Of a stretch of DNA of 64,000 nt, positions 1 through 60,093 are shown one piece after another. A model generated the notes under the pieces. The model searched no databases. It saw nothing but the letters and a program-made list of their open reading frames with translations, and was not told the origin of the DNA. The DNA comes from Tubulanus polymorphus (lineage: Eukaryota; Animalia; Nemertea): NCBI RefSeq assembly GCF_964204645.1, contig NC_134027.1, forward strand, positions 23,150,560-23,214,559, written 5' to 3'. Position 1 is the first letter of the stretch. The number at the start of each line of letters is the position of its first letter. The translations under genes were made by a program, and so were the position numbers.

Positions 1-163
1 GAGATCAATTTACAAGAACGCATGGCAGATATCTGCTGCTTGCCTGAACTTTTTGATTTCATTCATAAGTGCTTTAAGTCAAAGAGCAAACATTGTAATG
101 GATTTGTTTTAAAGTTCTTTCACATATACAACGTCAGCGGAGATTTTTTTCAATTTCCTTTAG

Positions 164-3433: not shown

Positions 3434-3555
3434 CAAATACGTACTGTTTCGACCAGCCGGAAATGTTTGCTGACTTTGAGAAGACGTGTTACCTGCAATA
3501 GATGACCCTTTCACGCTAGATATTGATTCGAACTTCGCTACTGGATACCATATAA

Positions 3556-29567: not shown

Positions 29568-29639
29568 AAGTTCGAGATCACTATTTAAAATCTGGAAGCC
29601 GGTGGCTGAACAAAAATTGCAATGTGACTCTAAACGCAT

Positions 29640-37300: not shown

Positions 37301-40300
37301 ATTGTCAATTATTTAGGTATCATCGCATTTGCATCCAGATATTTACTATAAGAATTATTTTTAGCTAGTACGTCAATTGTCATGAGTAAACACTTGTTAA
37401 CCTGTCCATTTATAGATGCTCTTAATGAAAATGAAGTTTTGGGTCCGGTTACTTACATTGAACATCGACAGTAGCAATATTACTGATAGTAAAACCCGCT
37501 GTATTTGTTACTTGACATCTGTATCGCCCTGAATAAGCTTTTGATAAATTGTCCAGGTTGAGATGATCCTTTCTGGATTCAGTTGATTCAATTGATTTCC
37601 AGACACCCGATATAGCTGAGAATTGCCAGCGAAAAGTGTAATTGCTAGGATTACCATCGGTTGCAGAACAGTTAAACCGAATTGAACCGCCTTTTCTTAC
37701 TACACTTTTTAATGGTGTCAACGAAACGGAATCGGCGGGATCTGTAAAACAAGACACAGCCACTTTGCTTTTTAACGTAAGACCACTCGGAATATATCGA
37801 ACTGCCATCATCTGAAATAATGCATCATTTTCATGCAAAATCAATCATAAGATAAATATGTAATGATAATTACTCAAATTGGAATGATTAGATAAACACC
37901 ACTAAAGATTACACAGTACGGACAATGAAGCGTTTTTGGTGACACTATTGACAGGTTGGCGGTTCTGATAAGCTGTATATCTATATTGTCTTCCATTTTT
38001 ATCCTTATCAGTTGGTACTATTATAGACTACTAGAGCAATTGTGAGGTTCGGGTTTATGATTGGTTGCTCTGATATAGGCGTTGACGCCAAAGTAGGCCG
38101 GTTAAGTTGTCAGGGCTTAGACTTAAAACCGATCTAAGACTAACTTAGTTCTATATCCAATCTAACAACTGTTGGATATAAGATCACATTTTGGTCTCAC
38201 GTATAGACGATGGAACTGGTCTCTGAGCTGTTACCGAACTTACAGTGAACGATAACTGTTGTATCTTTATATAGATTTCCAGTTTGACATCTGTATCGAG
38301 CCTGATTCATGGTTTTAATTGCAGTAATCGATAATGTACTAGTAGCCACAAACCCGTGATAGGCTGCACTAGTTTTACTCGTAGCTGGTTGAGGGTCAAG
38401 TATGTGTCCATGTTGTAGAGGAATATGTGAACCACTGAATCTGTACAGCCGGGTTTGACGAGTCAGTTCTACACTCTGTTACGAGTTTATTTGTAGGCTA
38501 CATTGAACAATTTGACAGAATCGAAAAAAATCAAATGTTTGGTAAACGTGTTGTGTCTAAACTTACAGTGAACGGTAATTGTTGTATCTTTGTAAAGATT
38601 TCCAGTTTGACATCTGTATCGAGCCTGATTCATAGTTTTAGTTGCAGTAATAGATAATGTACTAGTAGCCATGAACCCGTGATTGGCTGCACTAGTTCGA
38701 TTCGTAGCTGGTTGGGAGTCAACTGGTGTCCATGTTGTAGTGTAATATGTGAACCACTGAATCTGTACAGCCGGGTTTGACGAGTCAGTTTTACATTCCA
38801 ACTGTTGATTATTGTTTTCTAATACATAATCTGCCGGTTTCTTCATCATCGTCAGTGTTGTTGCTTGAACTGGAAATAATTAGTTTTCATTAAATTGTCA
38901 AAATCCGGGGATATTGACGAAACAGAAATTAGTCAAAGGTGGTAGAACAACATTCACTCCATGAGCAGTACTTACAGTTGACAATTAATTGAACTTTATT
39001 AGAATTCATTTGTGTTGGTATACCAGCCCCAGTAGCTGTACATTGATATTCTGCCCGGTTATCTGTTTTATTGACGGATTTTGAATATGTAAAAGGACTG
39101 ACTCCTTGTTTCACAGTGCTGCCCCCTTGTATTCTAGTTATGACTAGGTTTGGTGCCGGGTTACCCCCTGTAGCTGTACACGTTAAGTCAACAGATGCAG
39201 ATTCCTGAACGGGTGACGTCGGTCCTTGTAATGTAACACCACTGGGCGGGTCTGAAATGAAGTAAAATAAGGATTGACCCGAACTGGAACCAAATTCACT
39301 TCTTGGAATAATAGTTATGAAACTATCTGAGCACTTACAGTTGACAGTTAATTTCACTTTATTAGAAATCATTGGTGTTGATATACCAGCCCCAGTAGCT
39401 GTACATTGATATTCTGCCTGGTTATCCGTTTTAGTGACGGATGTTGAATATGTCAGGGGACTAACTCCCTGTTTGACAGTGCTGCCACCTGGTGTTCTGG
39501 TAATGGCGAGGTTTGGTACCGGGTTACCCCCTGTAGCTGTACACGTTAAGTTAACATATGTTGAGTCCTGAACGGGTGACGTCGGTCCTAATGTAACATT
39601 ACTTGGTGGGTCTTAAATGAAGTAAAATAAAGATCGGCCAATATTACTTATAATTTCGAGAAATGAAATACTTCGGGTGTTGGAGCGATTATGTATATCT
39701 ATGTGTTAGTTGATTTCAATAGGTCTACCCATGGATATTTCAATCGCCTGTCAATCACAGGGACCTGTTTCGCTTGAATCTGGGTTAAGTTAAATTGTGG
39801 GTGTAAAAAATCAAAGAAATAATCGGTATCAAAGCCACTCGCTATGCGACTTTGTCTCTTCCAATCTTCCCGCCATTTGGATTCATTTTTGTGAGTACTC
39901 AATTTCATATTCTCGTCGAATTCTTAAGATATTTTTCTTCCGGTTTATGAGTCATTATTATCGCTTATCGCTGATAGATATATGTTTCGATAATGACAAA
40001 ATTTGAAACGTCAACATCATGTACAAACAAGCGCATGAGTTTTCGTTCAACGGCTCCGTGATCTTTATGACATTTTTTATCTAAACTGCAAAAACGATCA
40101 ACTATTTGAAAAATGACATGTTTGATACTAGTTCTAAGTGTGATCGAATGATTTTAAGTGAAGAGTAAAGTGACCACGTGTTTATGAAATACTTACGTAG
40201 AACATCGATAGTAATACTACCAGTGACTGATCCTGCTATATTCGATACTGTACATGTATAAACACCTGAATCAGTTCTACTGATTCGTGTAAAACGTGTA

Positions 40301-42044
40301 ATGTGAGTTTATTATTAGATTGTCCTGATAGATTGACACCACTCCATCTATACTTCAGTCCCGTAGCTCCAGACTGTGAACCGTTACATGTGATTGTTAA
40401 TGGTGAATTCTCCTGTACTGTGACGATGTTGTTGATCGCGGTGTTTGGTTGAGATGTTAGAACTGGTCCACGCGGGGGTGCTGTAAATTTGAAACCATGT
40501 AGAACTACATAGAACTGGAATTGCATAGTGTCTGAATATATGAAACTTAGATAGAAAATATAAAAAGCCAGCAGGAGAAACGTAGGATGAGAAATTTCCT
40601 ATCATGCTCCCAGAACAGCTGTAGATTTTGAAAATCAATTGAACCAATTCATCAACGTCGGCGGCTATGAATATTTCAACGTTGTCGAATAGATTACGAT
40701 TATAATTCGGCACGATTTTCTAATCTCAATTAATAGAACTAAAGTAATGAGTATTCCGTGAGGAATTCAAAAAGTAACAATCGATTTCAGTTACAAAGAG
40801 CAGCTGGTGAATTGGATTGAAAATGACCGATGATTCATTAATTATTTATCATTTTTGTCATTTTGATATCATTCAATCGTTTTTCATTCTCACCTACTAC
40901 AGTAAGTACTGTTCTAGTATTTCGGAAAGAGTTCATGTAGTTACATGCCCATGTCCCAGCATCAATCATCGGTACATTAGTGATACGCAAACCATAACGT
41001 CCAGCTGTGACGTCACATAGTCCAGTGTACCGGGATTCACTGATAGCGCCACGAGGACAGTTTGTTTTATCAAACGCATACTGTACAGTAGGGATACTGA
41101 ATGTCATTCTGTGACCGCAGAAATTTCTACTGGGTGGTGAAACCTGACATTGTACGACAGTGGTGCCACCTAGTTTTACAACTGCTGGTGTTACAACCAT
41201 CGTGAATGTCGTATCCGCTGCGTCTATACAGTTCTGCTGTTGACCTAAACAAGAAGAATAAACAAGAATTTTGGTCGGGCGATATAGCAATTCTCTTTTT
41301 AACATATCAGAGACCATGGCAAATTACTACTTTACTCATTAACACCAAGAGCAGTTCCCAAGGGCATCGCCGCGGGTCGGGGGCCTGAACGAGGAAACTA
41401 AGTCAAAAAATAAGTTCCGATTTATTCGTCATAAAAGACTTTATTTCTGTCTTTTCGTTTTTAATTCTTGAATTCGCTTAAAATGCCCGAAAAAATATAT
41501 TGCAGAGAATTCAATTTGTTTCGAAGGAACCCCGTACCGCCAATCGCCTTTCGCCTTCGGCGCTTGTGTTCCGGATATTCCCAATTCCAACCTTCCTGCG
41601 GGAAATCCTTGAAAGGACCATGGTTCAATAGTAGTTAATCGAGTTAAACCTTCACAATTTATTATCACTTCTTGGTCTACATTTTAGCTCATCAGTTATT
41701 CTAGTCTTTTATTTTGATTAAACAGGATAGAATCAGATTTGATTATCAATCGTCTCATGATACGTTCGTTCAATGCGTTAATTTTTATAGAACCCTCTTT
41801 TTTATTCTGTTTACCGTTTATTTCTGTGTACATCATTACACACATGAACAGACTCATGAGCAGATTTTCCTGCAATTTGAAAAAAGGCAAAAATGGCAAA
41901 AGGTGTTACTATCTAAACTGTTCGACAAACCCAAAAAGGGCTGCCGCTCATGCAGTAACCACATTTGTGGCTCATATTTGTCGACATATCAATAATAATT
42001 TGGAACTGTATGTACAATAAAAAAATTCTTACCTTCAGAAACAT
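34353..42044 (-). pseudogene. IgSF receptor R3: SP - V - multiple Ig - truncated FN3 - TM - tail, with three damaged exons (may still be expressed by exon skipping)
   Basis: Exons 42044-42033 (MFLK), 41869-41815 (signal), 41244-40894 (V), 40480-40197 (8-bp insertion, frameshift), 39611-39339, 39251-38976, 38869-38567 (extra C-type Ig), 38475-38244 (partial frameshifted copy), 37741-37457, 37085-36816, 36566-~36488 (FN3 start only), 36360-36192 (TM), 35461-35433, 34788-34747, 34675-34631, 34399-34353 (NPYEDIKT*). Confidence 0.75.
38093..38226. mobile_element. Degenerate copy of the ~135-bp MITE family
   Basis: cagggcttagactt...tctaagactaacttagttcta matches the copies at 32653 and 61342. Confidence 0.65.
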
Positions 42045-42977
42045 GCTGCTTACATACGTACGTACAAGAATCCTTCAATGAAAATAGGCGTTTTTAAGGA
42101 AAATGTACAGTGGCAATTTTCTAATGGCAGCGGTAACACCTGACAATAATATCTGGTTTGAATCTCGAAACTTCGTGTCTTTTGAATTAATTTCTGATTG
42201 AATAAGTTCGCCATTTTAAAACATAAATCCGTGTATAGTGGGTTTCTATCTTATTATCTGTTCTCCACGCCTGACCGCTGTTATTTTACTAAAATGGTAG
42301 TGGTTTTTATTAAAGTACATTTCCCAGCTTGTTTAAACTTTAGATATTCGCTTCAAATTAAGGTAACACTGCCCCTGTTCCGTTGCCCCTTCTTCAGATA
42401 ATAACGAAAAGTTCCTTCATTGATGCAGTAACTTCTGCGATTAAAGTTAAGCCCGTAGATGAGGAAACACCAAAAAATGAAAGTTTGTGTATGACGTGTG
42501 TTCATTATTATGATAAATGAAGACAACGCCAAAGCGAAAGTGCGCAAAAGCTTTTTTCCCCAATATACGTCAATGTATATGCGTCAAAAGATCTACTACT
42601 TACCAGAAAAAAATATTTGAATCGCAGATCAGTTGAAGACAGTGTTCCCGCAGTACGGAGATGAATGTTTTAAAAGATCTCATCCGACCAGGAAGAATTA
42701 TACAAGGATATTGATAAAGTTGCGTGGTACAAAACCACGAAAACATGAATTCAAGGGAAGAGATAAGTTTTAATCAATAAAGGCTACAGTCATTAAGTGG
42801 GTGGGTGTACGTAAATAATTCGTGCCCTTGTGTTTTATGTTTAGAAAAACAACGAAAAGAAATATGGAAGTTCAACTTGTGATATGAATGAATAAGAATG
42901 CCAAATATAGTATCTTACCAAGACTGATGAAAAATAAACATTTCATTACCGATCTAAGGTCGAAGGTAAAACAGCAC

Positions 42978-42988
42978 GGGTAATTTCC
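42978..42988. promoter_or_regulatory. Candidate Rel/NF-kB (Dorsal-type) site upstream of R3
   Basis: GGGTAATTTCC inside a non-coding block that is also found upstream of R5. Confidence 0.35.
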
Positions 42989-43403
42989 ATACTGAGGGCC
43001 TAGTATGGTGGCTCATTGGGGACATTAAAAAGGAAACGATTTGAGACTCAAACGCCTTCATTTCTTTTTTAAACTCAAAATCAAAAAACGCAACGTTCAA
43101 TCCAGCTTTTTGTTTTAACGTCGCGTTAAACAAGATCATTTGTAGTTTTGGGTCGCCTTAAAAATTATTCTATGAATCCAGCGAGAATGCATAAGATGTT
43201 GCGGAATAAATTGGATTTAGACTTTGAATTGATTAACGTATGTAGTGAGAAAAGAAACTTGAGTTTCCCCAGAATGGTGACGTAGAACAATATGGTGGGT
43301 TAATCATCAATAAACAATTTTAATAATGATGACAGTCTATTTATATATCAGTGGTATTCTATGAAATTCATAGCCCTTTGAAAAAGGTTGTAATAGTAAT
43401 CAT

Positions 43404-44680
43404 TAGCACATGAAGGTGGTAATTCAATAAATACAAAACTAAGTTAATCAAAGCAAATATTATTCTTGATGATACGTTTCCGCTACAAATGTATGCACCT
43501 TAAATAGGACGAACATTATGCATTAGTTCGAAACATCTTGCAAATATCAACAGTACATAATGGTGCATCAAACGTTGGAGCTGGTTTCAGGTTTCATTGT
43601 TTTCCTATTTTACTGACACGATCTATTTCCAATTTCCCAGAATAAGTACATCGTGACGGGTCATTTATTGATATTCATGAAAGATACGTGACTTTTTGTT
43701 TATGTTCTATATTCAGAAACACGTTGTTTCGCCAACAGTCTGACAGGAGACCTGACACTGCCGAAACCACCCGGGCAATGGCGTAGCCATAATTTCTAAG
43801 TATTGACATAGCAGGCCGTGGTAGTATGCTTGAACATCGAACATTTCGTCATTACGTCAGCGAAAAGAAGTGCTTCCGAATCATTCCGAATAGCTATTTC
43901 GTTTACATCTTAACGTCTTCCTAGAGGCATGGATCGGCTTTTTGTGAGAGAAACAAAGAAAATATTAAACGAAATTAATAGATGTATCGAAATCAGGATC
44001 AAATTGATCCCCACTCAACACAATTTACATCTTTTGTATAGGATTAACATGGACGAATCATAATATAATAATAGCCGATAATAACATAGCACATGAAGGT
44101 GGTAATTCAATAAATACAAAACTAAGTTAATCAAAGCAAATATTATTCTTGATGATACGTTTCCGCTACAAATGTATGCACCTTAAATAGGACGAACATT
44201 ATGCATTAGTTCGAAACATCTTGCAAATATCAACAGTACATAATTGTGCATCAAACGTTGGAGCTGGTTTCAGGTTTCATTGTTTTCCTATTTTACTGAC
44301 ACGATCTATTTCCAATTTCCCAGAATAAGTACATCGTGACGGGTCATTTATTGATATTCATGAAAGATACGTGACTTTTTGTTTATGTTCTATATTCAGA
44401 AACACGTTGTTTCGCCAACAGTCTGACAGGAGACCTGACACTGCCGAAACCACCCGGGCAATGGCGTAGCCATAATTTCTAAGTATTTACATAGCAGGCC
44501 GTGGTAGTATGCTTGAACATCGAACATTTCGTCATTACGTCAGCGAAAAGAAGTACTTCCGAATCATTCCGAATAGCTATTTCGTTTACATCTTAACGTC
44601 TTCCTAAAGGCATGGATCGGCTTTTTGTGAGAGAAACAAAGAAAATATTAAACGAAATTAATAGATGTATCGAAATCAGG
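43404..44680. repeat. 594-bp near-identical direct duplication (43404-43997 and 44087-44680) with an 89-bp spacer
   Basis: Both copies run tagcacatgaagg...tcgaaatcagg; I counted four substitutions by eye. Confidence 0.93.
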
Positions 44681-44945
44681 TCCCAGGTCGAACAGCAATA
44701 CGTCACACAGCTAGAAAAAAGCAGACGTGGGTGAACTTCAGGTTTTGTAGTAACAAAGTAGTCGACTTAATGTCGGAGCTAATAATCGATCGCGCTTTGC
44801 TGTTTTCCGGACCATTTTTGACTTAATTGACATGATTCAGTTTTACTTAGATCGCAAATAGTCGATAACTCCGCTCGCCGAAGTTTATAGTTAAGCTTTT
44901 TACGTAGTCGTCTCTGCATCGCCTAAAAGATATCTTTCTTAATAA

Positions 44946-45234
44946 CATCCTCCCTCGGGATGATTTCGAACCTGATGGCTTCGCTTTGACTCAACCACGG
45001 CACGAAACCCTACCACATTGGGCCACAGGTACACGCAGGTTTGCCGCACGAAAACTTGCGGCACCAATCAGATTTCCCGTTGTATAATCGCCGAGACAAA
45101 TTCCGCAGATAAATTATAAATTGACTATGATAAAACTTGAATTCTGGTTGGCTAATATTTACATCATCTATGTTGCGCATTCAGCCCTGTCAGTCTTGAA
45201 ACAATTAGGTTCGAAATCTAGCCGAGGGAGGATG
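44946..45234. mobile_element. Inverted pair of the B-box-containing repeat flanking about 200 bp
   Basis: catcctccctcgg...ttcgaacct versus aggttcgaaatctagccgagggaggatg. Confidence 0.55.
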
Positions 45235-47979
45235 AGAAATACAGGCATGCTAATTGGGAATACACACCGTTAAAAGTCGTATTTACATACGGAGTGGTCG
45301 AAGCGTAATCACATAAAATATTACAACACACATTTAAACAATATACTGAAGGAGACGTGAGTCTGTTTCATGGAGTTCATTACTTTTAGCATATTCTGTA
45401 ACGATACAAAATTCGTTAAGGAATGATAACATTATCAATGACAATTACATTGTCGATAATGTCCATTCTTATACACGAATTTGTTACCTGTCGTCGATTC
45501 TTTAGTTTTTCTGAAATTAGAAATAATTTTTTTTCATGAAATTCTAAATCCAACGCAAGTGATAGTTTTAAGTGCATATCATAATAGGTTTTTAGTCAAT
45601 TTCAGGAAATACTTTTAAAATTGGAAGGTACAACGTGTGCGTGTCCATTTTGACGTTCAGCTATTTGAAATGCAAACAATTTGGCATTTTGCTACTTAAA
45701 TACTTATTTCTAAAATCAACAAAAACGTTGCAAAGAATGCTTTATTTAAATGTGTTTTCACGCTTTTTGCGTTGATTTGGTGCAGTCACGACATCGACTG
45801 TAAATGGATCATAAGGAACTCACGTTCTGCTTGATTTGTTGTCGAAGACGCAACCTTCATTTCTGAGTAGGACTATTAAAAGTACGATCACCAAGATTAC
45901 TACCAGCACAAACAAAATGATACCAAAGACAACACCAACATTGATCAGTGGAACTAGGGAAGTGACGGCCCACTTGTCAGCAACTGAAAAGATGATTTAA
46001 CTGATGATTTTAATTTTAGAAGTAATTCAGATATTTAAGTACAATGGAATACAAGCCATTGGATAACTGAAACACTATACTATATAACATAGTAACTGCA
46101 GGTATTATGGAGCTTTCATGACATATATTATTGGGCTTTCGTGAATTATATCAATGGGCTTTCAGGAGATATATCATTGAGCTGCAGTAATTAGCTATAG
46201 TTATTATTAACTATAGCAACGCAACAAGTAATGTAATGTACGGAAGCTGGAGTTTGGCCTGTATTGCTGTTATCAGACACCCTGCATTGATGCCTGCGTC
46301 ATACATAAACAATAAATAGAAGTAATGTAAATAAAACATGTCTGGACGAGACGTATGTATCCACGTAGGGAGCCTAAATATGGCGCATCCATGAGCAACG
46401 ACGAGTGCAAAAGGTATTTTAGGATATCGTGACGTGTCGAGAAACATAAACACTCCATACATGGGTCAGTGGAATGTTGTGAAGTATGAATCCGTGAATA
46501 CCTTGCCATGCGTGGTAAAGGGCCTGTATACGTTACTAAACAGTAAACGATATAAATTGGAAGAGCGGGTCTTTGGGGAGCGCTTTAGAAATATAATGTG
46601 TAAATTCGGTTAAGAAATGAATATGGATATATAGACTTAAAATTTAAGAAATCCTGCCAAGTTTTACATACAGGAGCATTAGAAGCAAATCAAGGAACCA
46701 GGACCGAAAATCTGGCCAAAAAACACGGTGAACAATTACTACAACACAGCTAGATATTATATCGCCACAACACAGGTACAAACATCTCGTACAAAGAATT
46801 GTCAACCACTGTTAATTAACCGTGATGATTATTGCATTTACGTAGTGGTCCTATAAAAACCGCCGAATATCATAGAACTCATTAACCATATATTCTACCT
46901 ACGTAGAGATTAAACCTATTGTCGTCTTATATGAAACGGTCTTTTGTAGGTATCAATCTACGAACGGACCGTTTCAAGACATTTGGCTATTAAGATCTCC
47001 ACTCAACACAATTTACGTCGTTCAGACATCACATGTATTAATTTCTTCACACTACCGACATTTCTAATTGATAATAAAACATACATACTAACAACACCAG
47101 TCATTGGGGAGTTCATCCCCACACTCTGCTGAACATCTATAGACCTGACAGGAATAGTTGTTATTAAGAGGGGGGGTCGTGGCAGTAGATTTCGAAACGC
47201 TGTAACACATCTGCCGGAGTTTCGTATATAGTACGGCTAGGCTGTAGTACTTACCAGTCTCAATGAGTTTCAGTGTTATTTTCAAACTCCCAACTGAATT
47301 AATGAGTCTACACGAATAAGATCCATAATCAGACGCCTGAACTGATATTATAATGACCTCCCATTGCCTTAAATCTGTATTAATCACGATAGTTTTATCA
47401 TGTGTTTCCTTGTGACTGCATACCAAAGTTGTTGCTAATGGGTTCGCATCATAGCGTAGCGTAAATTTAGCAGATTCTCCGATTTTTGCGCTCTGGGTTT
47501 GAGTTCTGAGAGCTTTGGCGCATCTATTGGATAAGTAGAAAAAAGGTTGAGTAAATGCACATTCCGTGTGTGACCTAGATGAGAAGAGATCTAGACGACT
47601 GCCTTAATACATTTTTGCGCCCTTGTGAACATGAAAAAGATTGTATGAAAAGGGAAGGTCAGGCATTAAGGTCGTATTGTTTTGTTGCATATGGATCTAC
47701 TCCCGAAGCTATGGATCATATTTGAACGAAGGAGGGAACTGGTTTGAACATGATACGCTGGGTATGATTATACCATTATGTCGATCTCCTTTCAGGCAAT
47801 GACTTTTTAGAAAATTGTGAAGTTCGTATAAAAACATCATGTCCAAAGAAAGAAGTGGCCAATTTCTGTCCATAATGAATGTGAACTTATACTTCTTCAC
47901 GAATACTCCCTTGTCGAGGTAGTCGTGTGGAAATGGAACAACGAGGAAGACTGCAGATCACATGCTTAATAAATAATTA

Positions 47980-48215
47980 AATCGCACATGACTGTGTTAT
48001 ATGGCATTTCACATTCAGGAATGTATCACACGTGTGATTAACCTTCAGGGCTGTTACCCATTTGTGATTCACATGTGTAAAAATGGGACAAAATCACGCG
48101 TATGATTCACATTCAGGGATGTATCACACGTGTGATTTTTAAATCACACGTGTGATCATGTCCTATTTTAACACATATGAATCGCATGTGTTTTTTAAAA
48201 CATCACATGTGTGGA
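47980..48215. repeat. Low-complexity palindromic repeat rich in CACACGTGTG / CACATGTG
   Basis: atcacacgtgtgat occurs three times, plus variants, in an R4 intron. Confidence 0.7.
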
Positions 48216-50299
48216 TTTTTCTGTAAGGGGATATTACTTACATTGGACATCGACAGTAGCGATATTACTGATAGTAAAACCCCCTGTATTTATCACTTGA
48301 CACCTGTATTGTCCTGTATCAGCTTTAGATAAATTGTGCAGGGCAAGCTGATCATTCGTAGTTCCTATCGATTTCCAGACACCAGATACCGTTGAGAATT
48401 GCCAGATGTAAAATGTAACTATTAGGGTTTCCACCAGTTGCTGCACAATTAAACCAAATTGAATTGCCTTCTGTTCTTACTTAGCTGGAATCAGCGAAAC
48501 AGAATTAGCCGCATCTGTAAAACATAGCACCTAAATTGAAAATGAAGGGAGGGGAAACATATATGCCAATATTCCTAACTTGCACAATAAAGACATTGTC
48601 GTGGATTTGGTAACATCATAACAAGTTGACAATCCTAGTAAAATGTTTCACACATGCCATACACTGTTTATTTATACTATCTACAAAAAGTATTTCATTA
48701 GAAGAACAAGTAATTAATAAACTATCTGCATTACTTACAGGTTACATTTAATTCAACTTTATTAGAAATCATTGGTGTTGATATACCAGCCCCAGTAGCT
48801 GTACATTGATATTCTGCAAGGTTATCGGTTTTAGTGACTGTTGAATATTTTAGAGGACTAACTCCCTGCTTCACAGCGCTGCCTCCTGGCGTTCTAGTTA
48901 AGGAAAGATTCGGTACCGGGTCACCGGTAGCTGTACACGTAAAGTCAACAGTTGCAGATTCCTGAACGGGTGACGTCGGTCCTTGCAATGTGGATCTTGG
49001 CGGATCTGAAATGAAGGAGATTTAAGTATCAATGTTGTAGTAGAAAATTTGGATTATCATTCATAGAGCTTTTTGATTGTGATCGTGTGATCTTTATTGT
49101 AAGCATTTTCTCATTATATTTGACACACCTAATGAATACAGTACCACCGACGGTAGATGGGTATGAATATTTGATTAATGGGGGATTTTTGCACTAAATG
49201 GTGGCACGATATTCACTTGAATGCGAAATGAAAACTTATTGTTGCTAGTTCTCAATTAAGGTGAATGTATGAATATATACTTAGACATAAGTTAAATAGA
49301 TAATTACATTGAATGTTAATAGTAATTCCACCAGTAACTGATCCAAATGTATTCGATGCTGTACACGTATAAACACCTGAATCAGTTCTCCTGACTTCTG
49401 TAAACATGAGTTTACTATTAGACTGTCCTGATAGATTGACACCACTCCATTTATACGGCAGTCCTTTAGCTCCAGACCGTGAACCGTCACATGTGATTGT
49501 TTATGTTGAATTCTCCTGTACTGTGACGATGTTGTTTGTGGTGGTGTCTGGTTGAGATGTTAAAACTGGTCCACTCGGGGGTACTGTAAACATCGAAACA
49601 GAATGAGAACTTCAACAGGCTCAATTTCCATTCACATATTCTGAGCGTTTTTAGGCTCTGCTTGATCATCTCATATATTGATTGATTGATTGATTTCATT
49701 TTCATAGAACATAATTGCATATTATAGTAATTTCTCTTCAAAAATGAACTATGAAGGAGTCGTCCGGAGCCTGAAGGTTGTAACTCCGTACAGAGTGGAC
49801 GGAGGCGCTCCGGGGACTATGAAATGGATGGTGATAATGTTAATATCAATATTATCAGGCTTTATCAAGCTTTTTTTCAAAACTACATTCAACAAACAAT
49901 GTCAATACTATAACACCTATTATATGATACAAACATACTATGATTTGAATATTCTAGAGGATCATTTATTGATTTCTTACACATGAAATAAAATTTCCGG
50001 ACTTTCCTTTGAGGGGGTTTTATTCGTAATGCTCAGTTGTCATGCCCATTTCTTTCTAAAGAGATTAGAAAATAGGTGATTTTCTGTGTTTCACACCAAA
50101 CATACAAAAGTCGCATCCTAGGGTACAGTTCCTATGATTCACTATGTACAAGTAGAATTGGCTGTGGCGAGGAGTCTGTCACTGAGATTTCATCTAATAC
50201 ATATTAGGGGGGGGGAAGAGATTTAGATATTCAACACTTATTTATTGATCAGTTGTTTTGTAGATTTGGTGAATGAATGAATCGAAGTGTATTTCTTAA

Positions 50300-50500
50300 T
50301 CGAATTTTGTCATCGATTTTTTTTTTTTATAAATGCCTGGAGCTTTATTGAGTGAGTAATCATTGAACGTATTTGTTTTGTGACGGGCTGATTGTGGATA
50401 ATTTCTTAATCTTGTGTCATGTCTGTGGTTTACTTGGTTGTGTTGAAACAATGCTCTTATTGGCACTTTTCCTTCATAGTACGTACTTGTCGCCAATATT
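50300..50500 (-). mobile_element. Possible LINE ORF2 C-terminal remnant
   Basis: LFQHNQVNHRHDTR...APGIY resembles the N..H.y.TR motif at CR1/L2-group 3' ends; short and degraded. Confidence 0.35.
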
Positions 50501-52193
50501 TGCGAGGTCTAGATTTATAATGTCTTAAAATTTTAGGATTTCATATTTTCTTGATAATTGAGATGTGGGCGCATTATAGCGGCTTTTATCAATAGATTGC
50601 CGTTTTGAAAAATGATGTCGATTTGCTGTTTTAGAGAAGAGTGTTCTCTGTCCTGCATAACAAAAATTTACATATATTTGGCCATGGAACAGCAGTTCTT
50701 TCTCCATGCGAGATATATTGAAAATGCGTCTTGTACTTCGAAATGTAGCATTGAAAAACTGAAAACAAATAATACGAAAGAAAGGGCGGTCCTCTAGCAC
50801 CTAAGGCGAGCCGGCGGATCCGCGTCTGTGATACAGAGCACGAATAGACTGAGTAAAATGTGGCATTTTCCCGCATAATTAGACTAAACTGAATACAGTA
50901 CTTATTCGTGAATTCTTACCTTTGAAAAAATATTTAGAAAGATCATGCATGCACTTGAATCCCCTATCGTTATACTAAAAACACGATTGAAATGAGATTT
51001 ATTTCAACTGTTTTTGATTCTCACCTGCTACGGTAAATTCTGTTTTACTATCTGGGAACATGCTCATGTAATCACAAAATCCTTTTCCCAGCATAATCAT
51101 CTGTACATTACTGATATATATGTTAACCATATCGCCCGGCTGTGACGTCACATTGTCCGGTGTATCGGGGCTCAATATTAAAGGCAGTTTTACGAGGACA
51201 GTTTGTCTTATCAAACTCATACGGTATTAAACGGCTACCAAATATCATTTTCTGACCACAGAAATTTTTACTGGGCGGTGAAACCTGACATTGTACGTCA
51301 GCGGTGCCACCAATTCTAAAAACTACTGGCGTAACAACTACCGTAAGGTTCGTATCCGCTGCGTCTATACAGTTCTGCTGCTGTCCTAAACAAGAAAAAT
51401 TAACACACAACGATTCATATTCTAATTACGGGTTGATAAAGCAATTATTTTGAATTAATTATTAATCATATCAACAGCATGCGGCCATTGCGAGCGAAAG
51501 TCGATGAATGTCGTCACTTATTCGACAGCTATCAAGGTTCGAATCCCAGTCGTCGCTCACTAAGAATCCGACCACACATTTTCATTAGCTCATTACAGAG
51601 CCGTGGGGGGGGGGGAGGTTTCGTGCGAGAAAGCCAAAATGTTTAGACAGGGTAAAATCGTTGAAATATGAATAGCTGCACTAAAGTAACACGTCAACAA
51701 TTTTGAAAGTCTTGTGGTTTGTTTTCTTAAAAGTCAAGAAGGCAATATTGTCAAAATATAACTGCAAAGTAACGGGTTTTCTGTTTGCAGCCGTCTGAAG
51801 TAAATTTGCATTTCCATTGGAATAAGTTACTCCCGACTTCAATAGAATAAGCACGGGCCAAATTTGCCTCAGGCCTGCTCCGTAACAATTTTTCGGAATT
51901 AGAACTCGCCGGTAGGCCTACTTACCGTTTATTTTAGTATACACCATTAGACACATGAACAGCGTCACGACAAAACACTCCTACAATTAAAACATTCCGG
52001 CAAGTCGTGGTCCTCTCAGTTCCAGCAGGGCGAATAGTTGTCGATGCGGCATTTGTCGACAACGACACTGCATGGGTGGAGAGATTCAGCCTCGAGTGCT
52101 GTTCGGTTCCGTGTCGCAGCACCGCCGAAGGGGAAGTAGGGGTCACCACCTCCAGGTGATTTTGTATTTTGTACTTATGTCGCTGACAGTTGC

Positions 52194-52315
52194 AATTTGA
52201 GCGTTTGCGGGGACGTCGAATTTAATTTTCCACACATCCGAAATAAGGGGATAAAATTTGAGCGTTTGCGGGGACGTCGAATTTTATTTTCCACAAATCC
52301 GAAATAAGGGGATAA
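52194..52315. repeat. 61-bp tandem duplication
   Basis: aatttgagcgtttgcggggacgtcgaattt...atccgaaataaggg occurs twice. Confidence 0.9.
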
Positions 52316-53176
52316 CTATTATGTCACTCAATACGTGGTTTTTAACGTGGTTATGGACACATGGACTTAATAATATGTAATTATATTGGCCTTACCTTGA
52401 TAAACATGCTGCTTTGTTGAAATCACTACAAAACTCTCATGAAGATTAATTTTTTTTTAATTTCACTCAGGGTTTTTAATACACAAAGCATCATATAAAT
52501 TCAAATGAATTCAATAATATATGCGCACTAGAACTTGGAGTAATCAGTCTGAATTATCACTTCAAAATTAGACTCTTCGTTATTCGCTACCCATCAACTC
52601 GTCACTGAACGACTCGCCGATCTGTCGAAGGAGCATTCCTATTTGGAACGTTCATTGCCCCGAGCTCTCCTCCCAATTTCTAACTTGGTATTCACGGTCG
52701 CCTTTACAGGTAGCAGCGAGTAACGTAGAGTCAAATGTATATGATTAGCATAGATTACATAATTAGAGCCGATGATGACTACGTAACAAAATATATGGAG
52801 GTAAAATGTTAGAAAAAATACAATTCTATTCATACAAAACTAAAAGTTTATATACACAAATATTTTCCAATGCTATAGAAATAAATATAAGTCTTGTACC
52901 ACGGGTCAATTTAATCATGTACAGGGTGAATTTATGGGGTTGACTCGGGGATCCCGGCCCCTGCCTTCCAATCGAGGTTGCCATTTTTGTCAACACAGAG
53001 GTCGCAAAAATCCATTTGACACTCATCCGGATATTGAATGTTTGTGTTTATCTCTTATATTATGCATAATACTGAGGGAGGGCCCCGCTAATGTGACTTA
53101 GCGTTACACACTCCTAGTATGTCCTATATTTCACGCCGGGAAAATGTCCCTAATCAAAGTTGGTTTTCTATTTCAT

Positions 53177-56100
53177 TCACATCTTCACATCTTCATAAAA
53201 GTTTGGATCGTTTTCATGAGGCTCACCTGATGATGAAGAAAAACAGAAAACAACGAAATTAATGAATGTCAGGTTTGTTCCATATCAGACAAGTACGGCT
53301 TTCTGAAAAGTGACGAGGTCGCAGAGTTTTGAACGAGTCACGAGGTTTTCCCGTAAATTTCCCTCAATTGAAAGAATCTTTGATTAACATTTAGAAACAA
53401 ACGTAGGCATGGCAATTTAGACTCACCACTAAAAGCCACATTTACATACGGCGTCGCCGCTGCATAATCGCCTGAAATATAACAATATAGATATGTACGA
53501 ACACAAAGGACTGTTAAAATTGGCAAAGATACGGGAGGTTTAGAATCCTAAGCTCATACGTACGTGAATCTGCGTCGTGGGTTTTATTTTCATTACAGCT
53601 AGTATACTCTGTAACGATACAAAAAAAAATCCGTTAACATCATCAATGATATTCAATATTATCATATGTGAATGTATATTTCCTTTCTTTTAGAGATCGG
53701 ATTAAGTTTTGTAAATGCTGATTTGTATTTTCAATATGATCAATATTTACCTGTTGTTGGTTCTTTAGTTTTTCTGAAATAAAAGGGTAATTTCATTGCG
53801 ATTTCGATGGTTATCGATTCAAAATACATACATATTTCATTACAGCGGGTCAGTATTTATTTGGGGGGGGGGGGGGGGTAGAATTCGAACCTACTCAGAG
53901 AGGTGTAAAGGTATATGTTCAAACAACCACGTGTTACCCATTATTGACATGCTGCTTTTTGGCATGCAATCGAATTTGGGACTTTCTGTTACTCGGAGGC
54001 AATGGAAAATCTAGTCATTTTGAAAATTGATAAAGCCATTGGAGAGTGTTATTTTCATGTAAAAGCTGTATCCTTTTTGTGCACTCTCTATATAAAGGTG
54101 TAATTAATATCAAATAAGGCAGTCAGGAAAATTCACCCAATCAGTCGCTTGCCGGTTCAGACTGAATGGAAGATTGTTTGAATGAACCAGAACCGAATTT
54201 CCCAATTATGTACTTCGATTTAAACAAAACATTCTGTAAATTTGTCCGTCGATCACACAACTATATCTGTACTTCGATTTCCGATTTCAAAATCAAACCC
54301 CCTGTTTCGTTTTCGGCAGGTGCGGTGAGTCTGTAAGGGGCACTCCATCAAAATATCAAACGAAATTAACCAAACCAAATAAGTAACATCGACAATCCCT
54401 ATTTCAAGATCAATACCAGGCAATCAAAATGATTCACGAAGATAACGCGGTTATACCGCAGTGTATTGGCCAATAAACTTACGTTTTTCTCAATCTGTCG
54501 ATTAAGACGATACCTCGGTTGTTTCTGAGTAGCTGTATCAATACTACGATGAACAATATTACAACCAGAACAAACGATATGCTACCAAGAACAACACCAG
54601 CATCAGATTGATGTACTACTGAAAATTAGATTATGCTTTAGTTGGGATAATCGGTATTTTTCTAAATCTACCGAATACTGCAAAGTTCTTGTAAAAATCA
54701 TCTACCGAACAGGCAAATTTTCCGTTCATATTGATAATCGCTGCGAGTGGCGTAAAGATCGCATAATCATCAGACCACCAACCGGCGCCCGCGTACGTTC
54801 TACATTCTTCCAATGAGCCGTCTGCTCGCAAAGATGCAATCAATAGTTGCAATAAATTTATAAACTTATACATGGCCGGGATCGATATTAACCATTCGAG
54901 CAGAGCACTGATGAAAAAACTCAGTGCTTGAACGACGAGCGAGGAAGCAGGAAGCATTGCGTGCGCATTTGCTTACCATTTGTTTTAGTTGTAACTATAT
55001 CGGTAGATAAACTTGTATTATCACCAGGATTTGAGTTGACACTTTTCACTTTGAACAGATAATCAGTCGCTGGTTTTAATCCGGTTATTTTTGTTTGTAC
55101 CAGTTTTCTATAACCGGGATCGGTTATTTCTGTTTTATTGACGAATTGCGTAGAGTCTAGTGCCCTGTAACTGAGGGTGAACGTCTGTTCGGAGCCACCC
55201 GCAAATTCAGACACCCAACTCAGAGTCACGGATTCAGCTGTTTTTGCAAGAACTGTCAGATTTGTCGGGGTTTGTGGAGGTCCTTAACAAGATAGATACA
55301 AGAATAGGTGATGTAACCTCTCGAATTGATGGTATGCTTAATATTGCGTTTCTAGGATAGATTTCTACTGAAACGTTTTGTAATACTTCATATACTTACC
55401 AGTCTCTGCGAGTTTGATTGTAGCCGTTATGCTCCCAATTGAATTTTTAACTCTACACGAATAAGTTCCATAATCAGACTCCCGGACGGATTTTATGATT
55501 ACATTCCATTGAGTTTTGCTCATCGTGGCAAAATATGAGGCTTCCCTCATTCTGTGACTGCATCTCAAGGTTGTGGGTGTCGGATTCGCGTCGTAATTTA
55601 TCGTCAATTTAGCAGTTTCTCCTATTTTTGCTGCAACCGATTTAACTTTTCGCTTAAGCTTTGGTGCATCTATCGGAAATGAAAAAAAAAGAAATATTTG
55701 GAAGCACTTTCTGCGAGTGACCTGACTACAATATTCATAATCCTAGCATTGGTGCTTCAAGCTAGGCACAGATCAACCCTAACGTGGCAATTCAACTGAT
55801 CGGTGACTGATGTCGACCGTCACATTTCTGCCACCGCGATCTCAATCGATCTGAGTCTAGCTATGGTTGTTTACGGAACCGTCGACGAGTCCCTAGAATT
55901 GAAAATGTTCTACTTCTACGATGCGACGGAACCGGTGTGCGCGCTGCGGTGGGCCGACAACCGGGGCCGACAACAGCAAATGAAATCAAATCCTAACGGC
56001 AGTCTATTGGCCGTCTGATGAATTTGTTTGAAACTATCATCGTAATTCTGTTGGGATAATTGCCTTATCTAGGGGAATTCGGTTATTTCAGTTTTGAAAA

Positions 56101-59100
56101 TGTGAGTAATATCGGCGTAAACAAATTCTAGCCATATTTCGATCAAAATCAAATACGTACTCAACGTTATTTGATTTTTGGTGTTCCGCATCTTCCACCA
56201 AATATATGAAAATTTAAGCGCAATATATCGGCAAATCACTGGAAAATTGTTAAATTTTTCGTAGAGGCAAATGGTGCATTTAACCTTTATTCTGAAGGTT
56301 GTATATTAGAACGAGTCTCATGATTTACCCATAGAGAAACTACGACAGGGGTGTATCTGCATATCAGTACAGATTAACAGGCCAAGGGCGTTGTTGAAAA
56401 AATTTCCTTTGACGATCCGACATTCAGAGGCGTTGTCAATGAAATTTAGGCTGGAATTTCAATGAAGTGGCTGGGATCGAGTCGCTGGTCGTTTGCGTGG
56501 ATTACCTTTATGTAAAGTTGCTGGGATCGAGGGGGCTGTGTGTTAACGCAGATAATCCCTTTATAAAAGTAGCTGGGATCGAACGACTGGGTGTTTGCGT
56601 GGGTGTTTACCCTTGTACAAAGTGGCTGGGATCGAAAGACTGTATGTTATTATGTTGGATATCGGGCGAGCGGGTTTTGATTTTTATACAACAAAAGACA
56701 ACGATGCTTTGCTGATGCGGGCGAGCGCATTTGACTTTTCAAAATTTGTATTAGGGACTTTTTATGACGCAAGCGGCATTTGACCTTTTTTGAAAAATTA
56801 TGGTATTTCTTTGTTTGGCCTAGTACCGGTATTGCAGATTCTCCAATCATCATCTTTAAACGGTTATCACCAAGTAACCTCAAATATAGCTATACACATT
56901 ACAAAATCAATATTCATTTGGTGATTGTCGGATCGTCGAAGAAAACTTCCTCGACATTGCTTGGTTTCTGATTGTCGGATTGTCGAAGGAAATTTTTTCG
57001 ACAATGCTTCTAATTGTCGAGAGAAGTTCTCGGGACGAAAACCGCATTACGCAGTTTGTGCCTACGACCTCGGCACAAATCAACCAGAAAACGGATACCA
57101 GCATACCGATTACTACTTACATTGGACATCGACGGTAGCGATATTACTGATAGTAAAACCCACTGTATTTGCCACTTGACATCTGTATAGTCCTGAATCA
57201 GCTTTTGATAAATCATGTATGACATGATGATCAATGTTCGGTCCGATTGATTTCCAGACACCCGGCGCAGTTGAGAGTTGCCAGGTGTAAGTGAAATTAT
57301 CGGGGTTTCCATCAGTTGCAGCACAGAAAAACCCAATTGAATTGCCTTCTGTAATTAACGACTTAACTGGAGTCAACGAAACAGAATCAACGGCATCTGT
57401 AAAATATTACCCGGCATTCAGAAATGACTGTGTAAAAATAGGCCTGCATGTAGTGATTATTCCACACTTGTTCATTACACACTTTTTCATAGATTAGGTA
57501 AAACCATAGACAGGTTGACAAGTCTGATAAGACATTTCGCAAATTCTTGGGAACTATCTGTATAACTTACGGGTGACCGTTAATACAACTTTATTAGAAA
57601 TCATTGGTGTTGGTATACCAGCCCCAGTAGCTGTACATTGATATTCTGCCTGGTTATCTGTTTTATTGACGGATGTTGAATATGTTAGAGGACTAACTCC
57701 CCGTTTCACAGTGCTGCCCCCTGGTGTTCTAGTTATGGCGAGGTTCGGTTCCGGGTTACCCCCTGTAGCTGTACACGTTAAGTTAACAGATGTTGATTCC
57801 TGAACGGGTGACGTCGGTCCTTGTAATGCAACACTATTTGGTGGATCTGAAATTCAACGAAATGAAGATGGTCAAAATATATCGTTCATCGCATCTGAGG
57901 ATTGGTAAGTGTAGCTAGATTCCGTATTGTTACCGGAGCTCACGCCAACACAAAACCTATGAAATTGTGTGTAGAAAACTACTTACTATTTCAGCACCTT
58001 ATCAAGGATATTATTACTGGACGATGTTATTTGCGGTGTTGACCTTTTGTATGTGAGCAAAATGACACAAGTTAATGAAATACTTACATTGAACGTTGAT
58101 AGTGATTCTACCAGTAACTGATCCATATGTATTCGATACTGTACACGTATAAACACCTGAATCAGTTTTACTGATTCGTGTAAAACTGAGTTTATTATTA
58201 GACTGTCCTGATAGATTGACACCACTCCATTTATACGTCAGTCCTGTAGCTCCAGACTGTGAACCGTCACATGTGATTGTTAACGATGAATTCTCCTGTA
58301 ATGTGACGATGTTGTTGATTGCGGTGGTTGGTTGAGATGTTAGAACTGGTCCACTCGGGGGCGCTGTAAATATCGGAACAGAATAGATTTAAGTTTTTAC
58401 GATTCACCTTTCATTAGCATGCTCCAGATTCATTTATTAGGATTTTCATTATACACAGCTTAAGAATGAAAGTATGACACAATGCATCAATAGACTACGA
58501 GTTAAATGTGGCATTGTCAATCTCATCCGACTAAACTAAATAAAGCATCTATTGGTAAATTCTAACTTGAGGACAAAAATGACGTAGAAAATCAACTCAA
58601 AGCGGCAAATAATTCAATGCCAATAATTATTACTAAACACGATTAAAATGTATGAATCATTCGTTTATAATTCTCACCTACTACAGTAATTACTGTTTTA
58701 CTATTTCTGAAAGAGTTCATGTAGTCACATGACCATGTCCCAGCATCAATCATCTGTACATTAGTGATGCGTAAACCATAACGTCCAGCTGTGACGTCAC
58801 ATTGTCCAGTGTACCGGGGTTCAGTGATAGTTCCACGAGGACAGTTTGTCTCATCAAACTGAAACGGCATAAAAGGGCCAGACAAGACTATCCTGAGACC
58901 GCAGAATTTTTTACTAGGTGGTGAAACCTGACATTGTACGACAGTGGTGCCACCTAGTTTTACAACTGCTAGTGTTGCAACTATCGTGATTGTCGTATCC
59001 GCTGCGTCTATACAGTTCTGCTGCTGCCCTATACAAGGAAAGTAAACAAGTAACTATTCCTCTCTAATTACATGTTAATAAAGCCATTATTTGAATTAAT

Positions 59101-60093
59101 CTTATCATCGACGAAACATAACCCTGGTTCGTATTAATCATAAGAATCCAGCACTTATTTTTCATTTTTACTCGCCGTTTATTTTCGTGTACAACATTAG
59201 ACACATGAATAGAGTCGTGACCAAAAACTCCTGCAATGAAAGAATCATTAGATGAGAGCTCTGAGCTCTACATTGTCGACAAACGAACAGTTACCATGTG
59301 CAATCTTAGCGTTAAAAAAAATCAAGGACAAATATGATTTTCCACCCGTCCGAAATAAGAGGACCCTATTATGATCTTCGTTCAATCTCGAGTACTGCAT
59401 AGAATGAATTAGATTATTCTTTAAGCTTCAAATTACAAATAATTTTTCAATGTAAAATACATGGTTAAATACATGGAAATATACAGTTTACATACTCCTG
59501 CACAGTATTTTAACATAAACTGCAAGTTTTCTTAATCACATTTCTATCGTCTGAATTAGATAATTTACTAAATTTATGAATAGTTGTATTTCCTTTTCGC
59601 AGACGATTCAAGTTTAATTCACAGTAACAAATGCTCTAAAACCCTCGAAACCGAAATGAACTATGAACTCATAGTTCGTCTTATATTACACTATTTTTTA
59701 TATATTCCTGCTACCTTCATATTGTAATTCGAATCGTGGATAAAACATTATTATGACAGATTTGGTATAAAGCGGTTATGTGAGCTCAAGCGGTTATCTC
59801 TCGGTATCGTGGCGATGTAATCCGACAGGTTAGGCGTGGTCACCTGACCGGTAACTTTGATTTCTACCAAGTGGCACACTATAGTCAAAGTGCTGTCTTA
59901 AATCTGCTATAACTATCATAGACAGGGCTAGCAGTAGACAATTTTGACAAGAGTAGACAAAATAACACTGAACACATGCTATCTATAGAATTCGTTCTTC
60001 AAAAAATCTATTCCCCAAAGATTATGGCGGCAGGCTTGAGTCGACCCTGGACTCTACGATATGTATCTATATCGGTCTTACCTTGATGATCAT
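53177..60093 (-). CDS. IgSF receptor R5, intact ~706 aa: SP - V - 4 Ig - FN3 - TM - tyrosine tail
   Basis: Exons 60093-60082 (MIIK), 59230-59176 (signal; GC donor), 59028-58678 (V), 58363-58088, 57846-57571, 57396-57121, 55669-55400, 55282-54977 (FN3), 54618-54483 (TM), 53773-53751, 53608-53564, 53471-53427, 53226-53177 total 2121 nt with no internal stop. The tail ends EYTSCNENKTHDADSRDYAAATPYVNVAFSGEPHENDPNFYEDVKM*. Confidence 0.88.
56464..56665. repeat. ~52-bp minisatellite, 4 copies, in an R5 intron
   Basis: aagt[gta]gctgggatcga recurs at about 52-bp spacing. Confidence 0.8.

What the first reader, a model, noticed from the sequence alone, without database searches (positions are those of the whole stretch)
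40894..59028. Hypervariable Cys-bounded segment inside otherwise conserved V domains
Seen: the 63-nt segment reads CGHRMTFSIPTVQYAFDKTNC in R3 (41057-41119), CGQKMIFGSRLIPYEFDKTNC in R4 (51198-51260) and CGLRIVLSGPFMPFQFDETNC in R5 (58841-58903). R3 and R5 share only 3 of the 13 central residues, whereas the flanks (VVKLGGTTVVQCQVSPPS; CDVTAGRYGLRITNV.MIDAGTW.C.YMNSFRN) are almost identical. Segment length is constant. The domain has six Cys and lacks the canonical C-strand Trp. Inference: a disulfide-pinned C-C' face under diversifying selection that sets binding specificity.
Basis: partly seen in the sequence, partly recalled or inferred. Interest (0 to 1): 0.78.

Follow-up and report, generated by a model that had tools for sequence, protein, structure and literature searches.

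The report
Variable-faced Ig receptors of ribbon worm
A ribbon worm carries a clustered family of antibody-like cell-surface proteins whose outermost domain differs in every copy over one short stretch, likely the surface that decides what each receptor binds, which makes them untested candidates for self/non-self recognition in a phylum known for graft rejection.

Summary
The three 63-nt Cys-to-Cys segments lie at the stated coordinates, and R3 and R5 share 3 of 13 core residues against 86 of 103 elsewhere. R5 is an intact, spliced gene identical to a Tubulanus polymorphus RefSeq protein. R4 is a pseudogene and R3 has three broken exons. Across 17 paralogous V domains all 17 cores differ, the segment is always 21 residues, and residues 44-56 are the most variable window (permutation 1 of 20,000). 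AlphaFold models place it on strands C and C'. Predicted outward F-strand residues vary just as much, while strands B, D and E barely vary, so the whole GFCC' face diversifies. Selection is likely but unproven: core dN/dS is 2-3 but not significant (p 0.13-0.69), and core dS matches unhomogenised exons. Ig4, Ig5 and FN3 also have variable windows. The genes are mosaics: near-identical ectodomains carry different tyrosine-motif tails, as paired immune receptors do. No close relative was found outside this species. Verdict: an apparently undescribed, lineage-specific diversified IgSF receptor family that likely works like Alr or paired receptors. The ligand is unknown.

The parts
58678..59028 (-). 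R5 V exon, intact; six-Cys V-set domain lacking the C-strand Trp
   Evidence: Pfam V-set 27.5 bits against cutoff 26; 100% identical to P0001 / XP_074644904.1
58841..58903 (-). R5 Cys42-Cys62 segment; variable core (residues 44-56) at 58859-58897; predicted C-C' hairpin
58724..58738 (-). R5 F-strand codons 97-101; positions 97/99/101 highly variable across paralogs, alternating with invariant 98/100
53180..59248 (-). R5 gene: leader, V, four further Ig exons (58089-58363, 57575-57844, 57122-57400, 55398-55667), FN3 (54978-55283), TM (54482-54619), three tail exons; short tail with YVNV and YEDV
   Evidence: exon map against RefSeq isoform P0020; V-to-Ig2 splice junction in contigs of run X4
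40894..41244 (-). R3 V exon, open frame
41057..41119 (-). R3 Cys42-Cys62 segment; core at 41075-41113
34300..41885 (-). R3 locus (approximate bounds): leader, V, Ig2 with 8-bp frameshift (40200-40483), further Ig exons (one frameshifted at 38245-38476), truncated FN3 (36488-36568), open TM exon and tail exons; a decaying gene, or functional only by exon skipping
51025..51385 (-). R4 V pseudo-exon (frameshift and stop after RYG)
51198..51260 (-). R4 Cys42-Cys62 segment; core at 51216-51254
45262..51991 (-). R4 pseudogene (stops or frameshifts in V, Ig2, Ig4, Ig5)
8985..15000 (+). R2, inverted paralog with two Ig2 exons and a decayed V remnant at 9285-9422 that lacks the core; end approximate
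91..3450 (+). R1, 3' half of another paralog (Ig5, FN3, extra extracellular domain, TM, tail); its 5' part is not seen in the window

Best explanation
This is a tandem, lineage-specific family of single-pass Ig-superfamily receptors of the ribbon worm Tubulanus polymorphus, whose N-terminal V domain likely uses its GFCC' face, with the Cys-bounded C-C' hairpin at its centre, as a specificity surface that diversifying selection likely keeps different between copies while recombination and gene conversion homogenise the scaffold. Shown: the architecture (leader, V, 1 to about 9 further Ig, optional FN3 and an extra domain, TM, tyrosine-rich tail), splicing of R5, a distinct core in each of 17 copies, mosaic genes, and two main tail types on similar ectodomains. 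Predicted: V-set fold with the core on strands C and C'. Inferred: disulfides 32-100, 42-62 and 5-76, with the extra bonds compensating for the lost Trp and fixing the hairpin length. Also inferred: ligand binding through that face leads to tail phosphorylation, with short YxN/YEE[IV] tails recruiting Src/Grb2-type partners and long EPIYA-like/SxYxxL tails recruiting Csk/SHP-type brakes (motif roles recalled). The ligand is most likely non-self or allogeneic cell surface, and this was not tested.
For: All 17 cores are distinct and 44-56 is the peak window, 1 of 20,000 permutations. P0008 and P0029 differ at 8.7% of 1,454 aligned residues with a near-identical C-terminal half, yet at 11 of 13 core residues, the top window of the whole protein (Fisher against the rest of V p 2e-5). 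P0032 and P0015 have 95% identical ectodomains and differ at 4 of 13 core residues against 4 of 103 in the rest of V (p 0.005), and their tails are of different types. Face asymmetry: chemical-class variation is 0.53 at predicted outward C/C' and turn positions and 0.68 at outward F positions, against 0.12 and 0.00 inward and 0.07-0.14 over strands B, D, E. One conversion tract cannot produce alternating variable and invariant codons in F about 120 nt away. Core dN 1.0 exceeds dS of the V flanks, Ig2 and Ig3 (p 3e-7) and of Ig4 (p 0.02). A divergence peak inside a converted gene is a described signature of selection (PMC3924837, passages). In Hydractinia Alr2, specificity-changing and positively selected sites lie on the C/C' side (PMC8282982, passages). 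Pseudogene-rich tandem cluster.
Against: Core dN/dS does not differ significantly from 1 in any of 3 pairs (p 0.13-0.69), and core dN is indistinguishable from Ig5 dS (p 0.51). Two of the three DNA copies are decayed, so some changes may be neutral. Ig5 (peak 0.66, mean 0.41), Ig4 (0.56) and FN3 (0.41) also have clustered variable windows (permutation 0.004-0.015), and Ig5 is more variable than V (peak 0.56, mean 0.30). Some pairs share nearly the same core: P0008/P0014 differ at 2 of 13, and P0003/P0016 show no core excess (p 0.14). No ITAM and no charged TM residue were found. Inward/outward assignment rests on alternation, medium-confidence models (mean pLDDT 69 and 75) and one HMM alignment; the light-chain alignments place the Trp three residues earlier. 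No tissue, allele or ligand data.
Confidence: 0.55

Rival explanations
1. Relaxed constraint plus patchy gene conversion. The paralogs are old, conversion keeps the V flanks, Ig2 and Ig3 alike, and the tolerant C-C' hairpin has drifted neutrally beyond the point where conversion copies it. No specificity is being selected.
For: dS rises from 0.09-0.15 in V flanks/Ig2/Ig3 to 0.37-0.72 in Ig4/Ig5 for the same gene pair, and core dS is 0.32. Core dN is not above Ig5 dS (p 0.51). Comparable variable windows occur in Ig4, Ig5 and FN3. Regions of V have uncorrelated distances (Mantel rho -0.04 to 0.27, none significant). R3 and R4 are decayed.
Against: Core length is fixed in 18 of 18, while Ig5's variable window has indels. 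Point estimates of dN/dS exceed 1 in 3 of 3 pairs (not independent). Variation is confined to one face and includes alternate F-strand codons. The core differs even between copies whose Ig5 is identical (P0008/P0029, P0003/P0016).
Confidence: 0.27
2. A neural or tissue adhesion code rather than immunity. The paralogs are homophilic or heterophilic cell-identity tags like clustered protocadherins or Dpr/DIP, with the GFCC' face setting partner choice.
For: Top structural neighbours are Necl-2/CADM, DIP-theta, Dpr1 and Necl-1 (Z 10.9-11.4, tied with many other V domains). Ig(n)-FN3-TM architecture. RefSeq names are NCAM-, nephrin-, contactin- and SYG-2-like (automatic).
Against: No close relative in any other species among 1.84 billion representatives or by profile search. 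Rapid birth and death with pseudogenes and swapped tyrosine-motif tails fit immune receptors better than conserved wiring codes (general knowledge).
Confidence: 0.15
3. Somatic or cassette-type diversification: cores are copied in from silent donor segments.
For: Pseudogenes flank the intact gene, and similar core types recur on different flanks (R3, P0004, P0024).
Against: The core flanks occur only in the three full V exons of the window (plus one 13-nt two-mismatch match at 42144). The one spliced junction seen matches the R5 germline exons, and the RefSeq isoforms of one gene share one V.
Confidence: 0.03

Closest known systems
Hydractinia Alr family (Alr1, Alr2; PMC9546547 and PMC8282982, passages read)
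   Same: Invertebrate tandem cluster of genes and pseudogenes; one exon per domain; V-set domain 1 mostly lacking Trp41; Ig plus FN3-like ectodomain; tyrosine-motif tails; variation concentrated on the C/C' side; exon shuffling with pseudogenes.
   Different: Alr domain 1 lacks the B-F cysteines, whereas this V keeps them and adds four more. Alr tails have ITAMs and none was found here. Alr diversity is allelic with shown homophilic binding; here only paralogs were compared. No sequence hit to Alr.
Vertebrate paired Ig receptors (SIRP, CEACAM, CD300, LILR, FcR-like; properties recalled; PMC2413239 seen in listing only)
   Same: Clustered birth-and-death family; near-identical ectodomains joined to different tails (P0032/P0015, 95%); variable N-terminal V domain; SxYxxL motif in long tails.
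   Different: No ITAM and no charged TM residue in the short-tail class; long tails have repeated EPIYA-like motifs; no homology beyond the V-set fold; opposing signalling not shown.
Nectin-like/CADM and Dpr/DIP Ig1 domains
   Same: Best structural matches of the model (Necl-2 Z 11.4, rmsd 2.2, 94 aligned; DIP-theta Z 11.1); these bind through the GFCC' face (recalled).
   Different: Only 10-20% identity; tied with antibody and B7 domains; they lack this six-Cys pattern and are conserved across species (recalled).
Oyster Ig receptors CgNCAM1 (PMC11841013, start of abstract) and CgIgIT2 (PMC11999971, passage)
   Same: Lophotrochozoan Ig(n)[-FN3]-TM receptors with tyrosine motifs that recognise microbes.
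   Different: Described as single genes, with no diversified V face reported in what was read; no sequence hit.

Membership tests
IgSF V-set domain | V-type beta-sandwich with C' strand | tested here: met
   Pfam V-set above cutoff for R5; models and fold searches
IgSF V-set domain | B-F cysteine pair and D-x-G-x-Y-x-C motif | tested here: met
   C32 and C100 invariant; motif reads D-[AST]-G-x-W-x-C, with Trp in place of Tyr
IgSF V-set domain | C-strand Trp41 | tested here: not met
   Ile or Met at position 46 in 18 of 18; no Trp between C32 and C62
Hydractinia Alr family | Domain 1 without the B-F cysteines | tested here: not met
   Both present here; Alr pattern from PMC9546547 passages
Hydractinia Alr family | Sequence homology to Alr proteins | tested here: inconclusive
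   No Alr-named hit, but these searches are weak at this distance and no direct comparison was run
Hydractinia Alr family | High allelic polymorphism and allele-specific homophilic binding | not testable with these tools
   Only paralogs and at most 2 samples were available
Paired Ig receptors | Near-identical ectodomains with different tail types | tested here: met
   P0032 vs P0015: 845 of 890 identical, short vs long tail; P0008 vs P0014: 848 of 986
Paired Ig receptors | ITIM consensus in one class | tested here: met
   S-x-Y-x-x-L in 4 of 13 tails examined; a motif match only
Paired Ig receptors | ITAM or charged TM residue in the activating class | tested here: not met
   No YxxI/L-x6-12-YxxI/L in any tail and no charged residue in the 21-residue TM windows
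Paired Ig receptors | Opposing signalling on immune cells | not testable with these tools
   No functional data
Domain under diversifying selection | dN/dS significantly above 1 | tested here: inconclusive
   omega 2.0-3.3, p 0.13-0.69, about 9 synonymous sites

The most novel reading that the evidence does not exclude
This is a nemertean paired-receptor complex that arose independently of Alr and of vertebrate SIRP/KIR/CEACAM. Dozens of exon-shuffled genes combine a disulfide-framed, Trp-less V domain with a selected hypervariable GFCC' face and either activating-type or EPIYA/ITIM inhibitory-type tails, differ between haplotypes, and mediate self/non-self discrimination such as the graft rejection with memory reported for ribbon worms.
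Probability: 0.2. Interest if true: 0.8.

Novelty: new variant of a known kind. Interest (0 to 1): 0.5.

Why it matters
Ribbon worms of the genus Lineus reject xenografts with a three-month memory (PMC2248247, passage), and the searches here turned up no receptor for this. A diversified Ig receptor cluster with two tail types gives concrete candidates and a 13-residue core plus three F-strand positions to swap. If selection and opposing signalling are confirmed, it would be another independent origin of paired, hypervariable V-domain receptors, here in Lophotrochozoa. As it stands, variable C-C' faces in tandem IgSF families are a familiar pattern, the family is known from one species (not Lineus), and selection is not established.

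Tried and rejected
No whole genome is held, so no codon model over all copies could be run; DNA tests rest on R3, R4 and R5. Homodimer prediction of the R5 V domain gave no verdict (score 0.00) and is not evidence either way. No listed run is on record as RNA. Run X1 covers R5 introns at depth 22-24 and the R3 intron at 39 and shows no differing allele at 95% likeness. This could mean hemizygosity or a divergent second haplotype, but contig depth is no copy number and records are filtered (R5's own core has a hole), so it was not used. R3-specific letters were absent at some positions in X2-X4, inconclusive for the same reason. The V-domain tree is mostly unresolved (2 of 11 inner branches supported), so the Mantel nulls are weak evidence of mosaicism. 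Intron alignments (66-79% over aligned columns) were too gappy to serve as a neutral clock. The ESM Atlas gave only generic V-set and unnamed mollusc clusters. Three look-ups in earlier findings gave nothing on this family. No donor cassette was found in the window. Rows dropped: P0035 was left out of the variability counts as the most distant and N-terminally truncated member (17 of 18 used); R4, P0016, P0017 and P0018 were left out of the Mantel tests and the tree as partial; 10 of the 18 clusters found at that point were opened for members. The tblastn used a wrong frame and is disregarded. Not in print: searches of the open-access library found no description of this family in the listings; subscription journals and supplements were not seen.
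Full report
Observation. The three segments translate exactly as reported on the minus strand. They lie in V exons at 41244-40894 (R3), 51385-51025 (R4) and 59028-58678 (R5), each bounded by AG and GT in phase 1. Numbering from the first full codon, the cysteines are 5, 32, 42, 62, 76 and 100; the segment is 42-62 and its variable core 44-56. R3 and R5 share 3 of 13 core residues and 86 of 103 others. Non-synonymous differences are 16.5 of about 29 sites in the core and 17 of about 226 outside (p about 3e-9).

What the genes are. R5 matches Pfam V-set above its cutoff and R3 just below it; the downstream exons are Ig and FN3 domains. The R5 V domain is 100% identical to a Tubulanus polymorphus RefSeq protein (P0001, XP_074644904.1). 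Its isoform P0020 maps exon by exon to 59248-53180: leader, V, four Ig, FN3, TM and a three-exon tail. Contigs of run X4 join position 58678 to letters matching 58346-58363, the start of R5's next exon, which shows a spliced V-Ig2 junction. R4 is a pseudogene, with a frameshift and stop in V and lesions in Ig2, Ig4 and Ig5. R3 has an open V but an 8-bp insertion in Ig2, a second frameshifted Ig exon and a truncated FN3. No R3 protein came back from any search (best 77%), though 90% clustering could hide one. Because the exons are symmetric, R3 could survive by skipping; this is untested. Two more paralogs lie on the plus strand at the window's left end, one with a decayed V remnant.

The family. 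Word-index searches returned 17 longer proteins, 1 near-length protein and, with a 13-sequence profile, 18 proteins, all named T. polymorphus and lying on two contigs of 27.8 and 16.5 Mb. A full HMMER pass over 1.84 billion representatives gave 19 hits. The 7 below 1e-30, plus P0035, are from this family; the other 11 match only partial stretches. With cluster members this gives 18 distinct V domains including R3 and R4. In run X1, summed contig depth over the V flanks is tens of times that of the introns and falls in the core. One 2.6-kb contig matches both flanks but skips 83 bases of the same length as diverged. This shows many copies with the same pattern; it is not a copy number.

Is the core special? 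Among 17 domains (P0035 left out) all 17 cores differ, the median pair differs at 7 of 13, and the segment is 21 residues in 18 of 18. The most variable 13-residue window is 44-56 (1 of 20,000 permutations). P0008 and P0029 differ at 8.7% of 1,454 residues and hardly at all in their C-terminal halves, yet at 11 of 13 core positions, the top window of the protein. P0032 and P0015 differ at 4 of 13 against 4 of 103 in the rest of V. Against this, P0008 and P0014 differ at only 2 of 13, and P0003/P0016 show no significant excess. As a control, the same test on the other domains finds clustered variable windows in Ig4, Ig5 and FN3 but not in Ig2 or Ig3, and Ig5 is more variable than V both on average (0.41 vs 0.30) and at its peak (0.66 vs 0.56), with indels. 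A variable mid-domain stretch is therefore not unique to V. What is particular to V is the fixed length, the invariant frame and a difference in every copy.

Structure. Two AlphaFold2 models (mean pLDDT 69 and 75) give strands B 28-35, C 45/46-49, C' 54-57/58, D 72-77, E 82-87/90, F 96-102 and G 110-115 (strand letters are my assignment). They match V-set domains, best Necl-2, DIP-theta, Dpr1 and Necl-1 at Z 10.9-11.4, tied with antibody and B7-type domains. The profile alignment to Skint1 puts Ile/Met46 on the canonical Trp; light-chain alignments shift it by three, and in any case no Trp occurs between C32 and C62. Cys42 and Cys62 flank the C-C' hairpin, and Cys5 and Cys76 sit in the N-terminal strand and strand D, so 42-62 and 5-76 bonds are inferred from topology, not measured. 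Using strand alternation, predicted inward positions 44, 46, 48, 55 and 57 vary mostly within one chemical class (class-level variation 0.12). Outward and turn positions score 0.53, F-strand 97/99/101 score 0.68 between invariant neighbours, and strands B, D and E score 0.07-0.14. The variable unit is thus the GFCC' face, not the hairpin alone.

Selection. Nei-Gojobori counts (kappa 2) give core dN 1.04 and dS 0.32 for R3/R5, against 0.08 and 0.09 in the rest of V. Core omega is 3.3, 2.5 and 2.0 in the three pairs, none significant (p 0.13, 0.69, 0.26). Along the same R3/R5 pair dS is 0.15 in Ig2, 0.12-0.14 in Ig3, 0.37 in Ig4 and 0.72 in Ig5. The genes are therefore old and their N-terminal exons have been homogenised or exchanged. 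Core dN exceeds the local dS (p 3e-7) and Ig4 dS (p 0.02) but not Ig5 dS (p 0.51). But a peak of divergence within a converted gene is itself a described signature of selection (PMC3924837, passages), so raised dS does not decide the matter. The one-face pattern favours selection; it could also arise if the opposite face is constrained and this one is free.

Signalling end. Among 13 TM-bearing members examined, 6 have short tails ending in YE[ED][IV], with YxN motifs. Five have long tails, 4 of them with EP[IL]YA- or DPIYS-type repeats and an S-x-Y-x-x-L motif, and 2 have a third short type. R3, R1 and R2 end in short-type tails. P0032 and P0015 join 95% identical ectodomains to a short and a long tail. 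No ITAM and no charged TM residue were found. That EPIYA is a tyrosine-phosphorylation motif engaging SH2 proteins, with Csk in the case of Pragmin, is from the title and start of the abstract of PMC4946704; the Src and Grb2 preferences of YEEI and YxN are recalled.

Mechanism and rivals. Most likely (0.55) these are recognition receptors: the frame is kept by purifying selection and conversion, the GFCC' face is diversified to bind different ligands, and unequal crossing-over recombines specificity with stalk length and tail type. Drift in an unconverted, tolerant tract (0.27), a neural adhesion code (0.15) and cassette conversion (0.03) are the rivals.

Comparison. It works like Hydractinia Alr, where the cluster contains genes and pseudogenes, domain 1 mostly lacks Trp41 (PMC9546547, passages), and specificity and positive selection map to the C/C' side (PMC8282982, passages). 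It is not filed as Alr, because Alr domain 1 lacks the B-F cysteines kept here. It meets two of the paired-receptor criteria and fails the ITAM/charged-TM one. A review of invertebrate IgSF has no occurrence of 'nemert' (PMC11999971, passages). A Lineus ruber immunity paper mentions 16 Ig-plus-TM genes as CRIg-like (PMC9835746, passages); whether they are related was not tested. Lineus rejects xenografts with memory (PMC2248247, passage). Eight literature searches showed no description of this family; supplements and subscription papers were not seen.

Verdict. The feature is real. The family appears undescribed and is a new variant of a known kind. Selection and function are likely but not shown. 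Interest 0.5.

Noticed in passing
window 30002-32090: Intronless, frameshifted LDLa-LRR-7TM (GRL101/LGR-like, name recalled) sequence whose LDLa repeats at 30002-30484 lie on the minus strand while the rest lies on the plus strand. It looks like a processed pseudogene with an inverted 5' part.
   Followed up: partly
window 18700-29650 (+): Multi-exon gene between the two Ig sub-clusters, with repeated exons that resemble LamG/pentraxin-like modules by eye and two similar Cys-rich exons (27154-27387, 29380-29643); no convincing Pfam match.
   Followed up: partly
window 43404-44680: Two 594-bp direct copies, 99.3% identical, between R3 and R4; a very recent duplication or an assembly artefact.
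   Followed up: no
window 58380-59400 vs 40700-41400: In run X1 the introns of R5 have about half the contig depth of the R3 intron (22-24 vs 39) with no alternative allele at 95% likeness; a weak hint of haplotype-specific gene content.
   Followed up: partly
window 55398-55667 and paralogous Ig5 exons: The membrane-proximal Ig5 domain has Ile/Val in place of the B-strand Cys and a Cys near the C-strand Trp position, and is the most divergent domain of the family, with indels.
   Followed up: partly
window 1548-1850 and 12294-12680: An extra two-Cys extracellular domain after FN3 in R1, R2 and several RefSeq paralogs has no Pfam match; it is reminiscent of the Alr extracellular spacer in position only.
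   Followed up: no
proteins P0008, P0029, P0010, P0015: Long tails with repeated EPIYA-like motifs (EPIYAQV, DPIYSNV, EPLYAQV) ending in a charged, probably helical C-terminus.
   Followed up: partly
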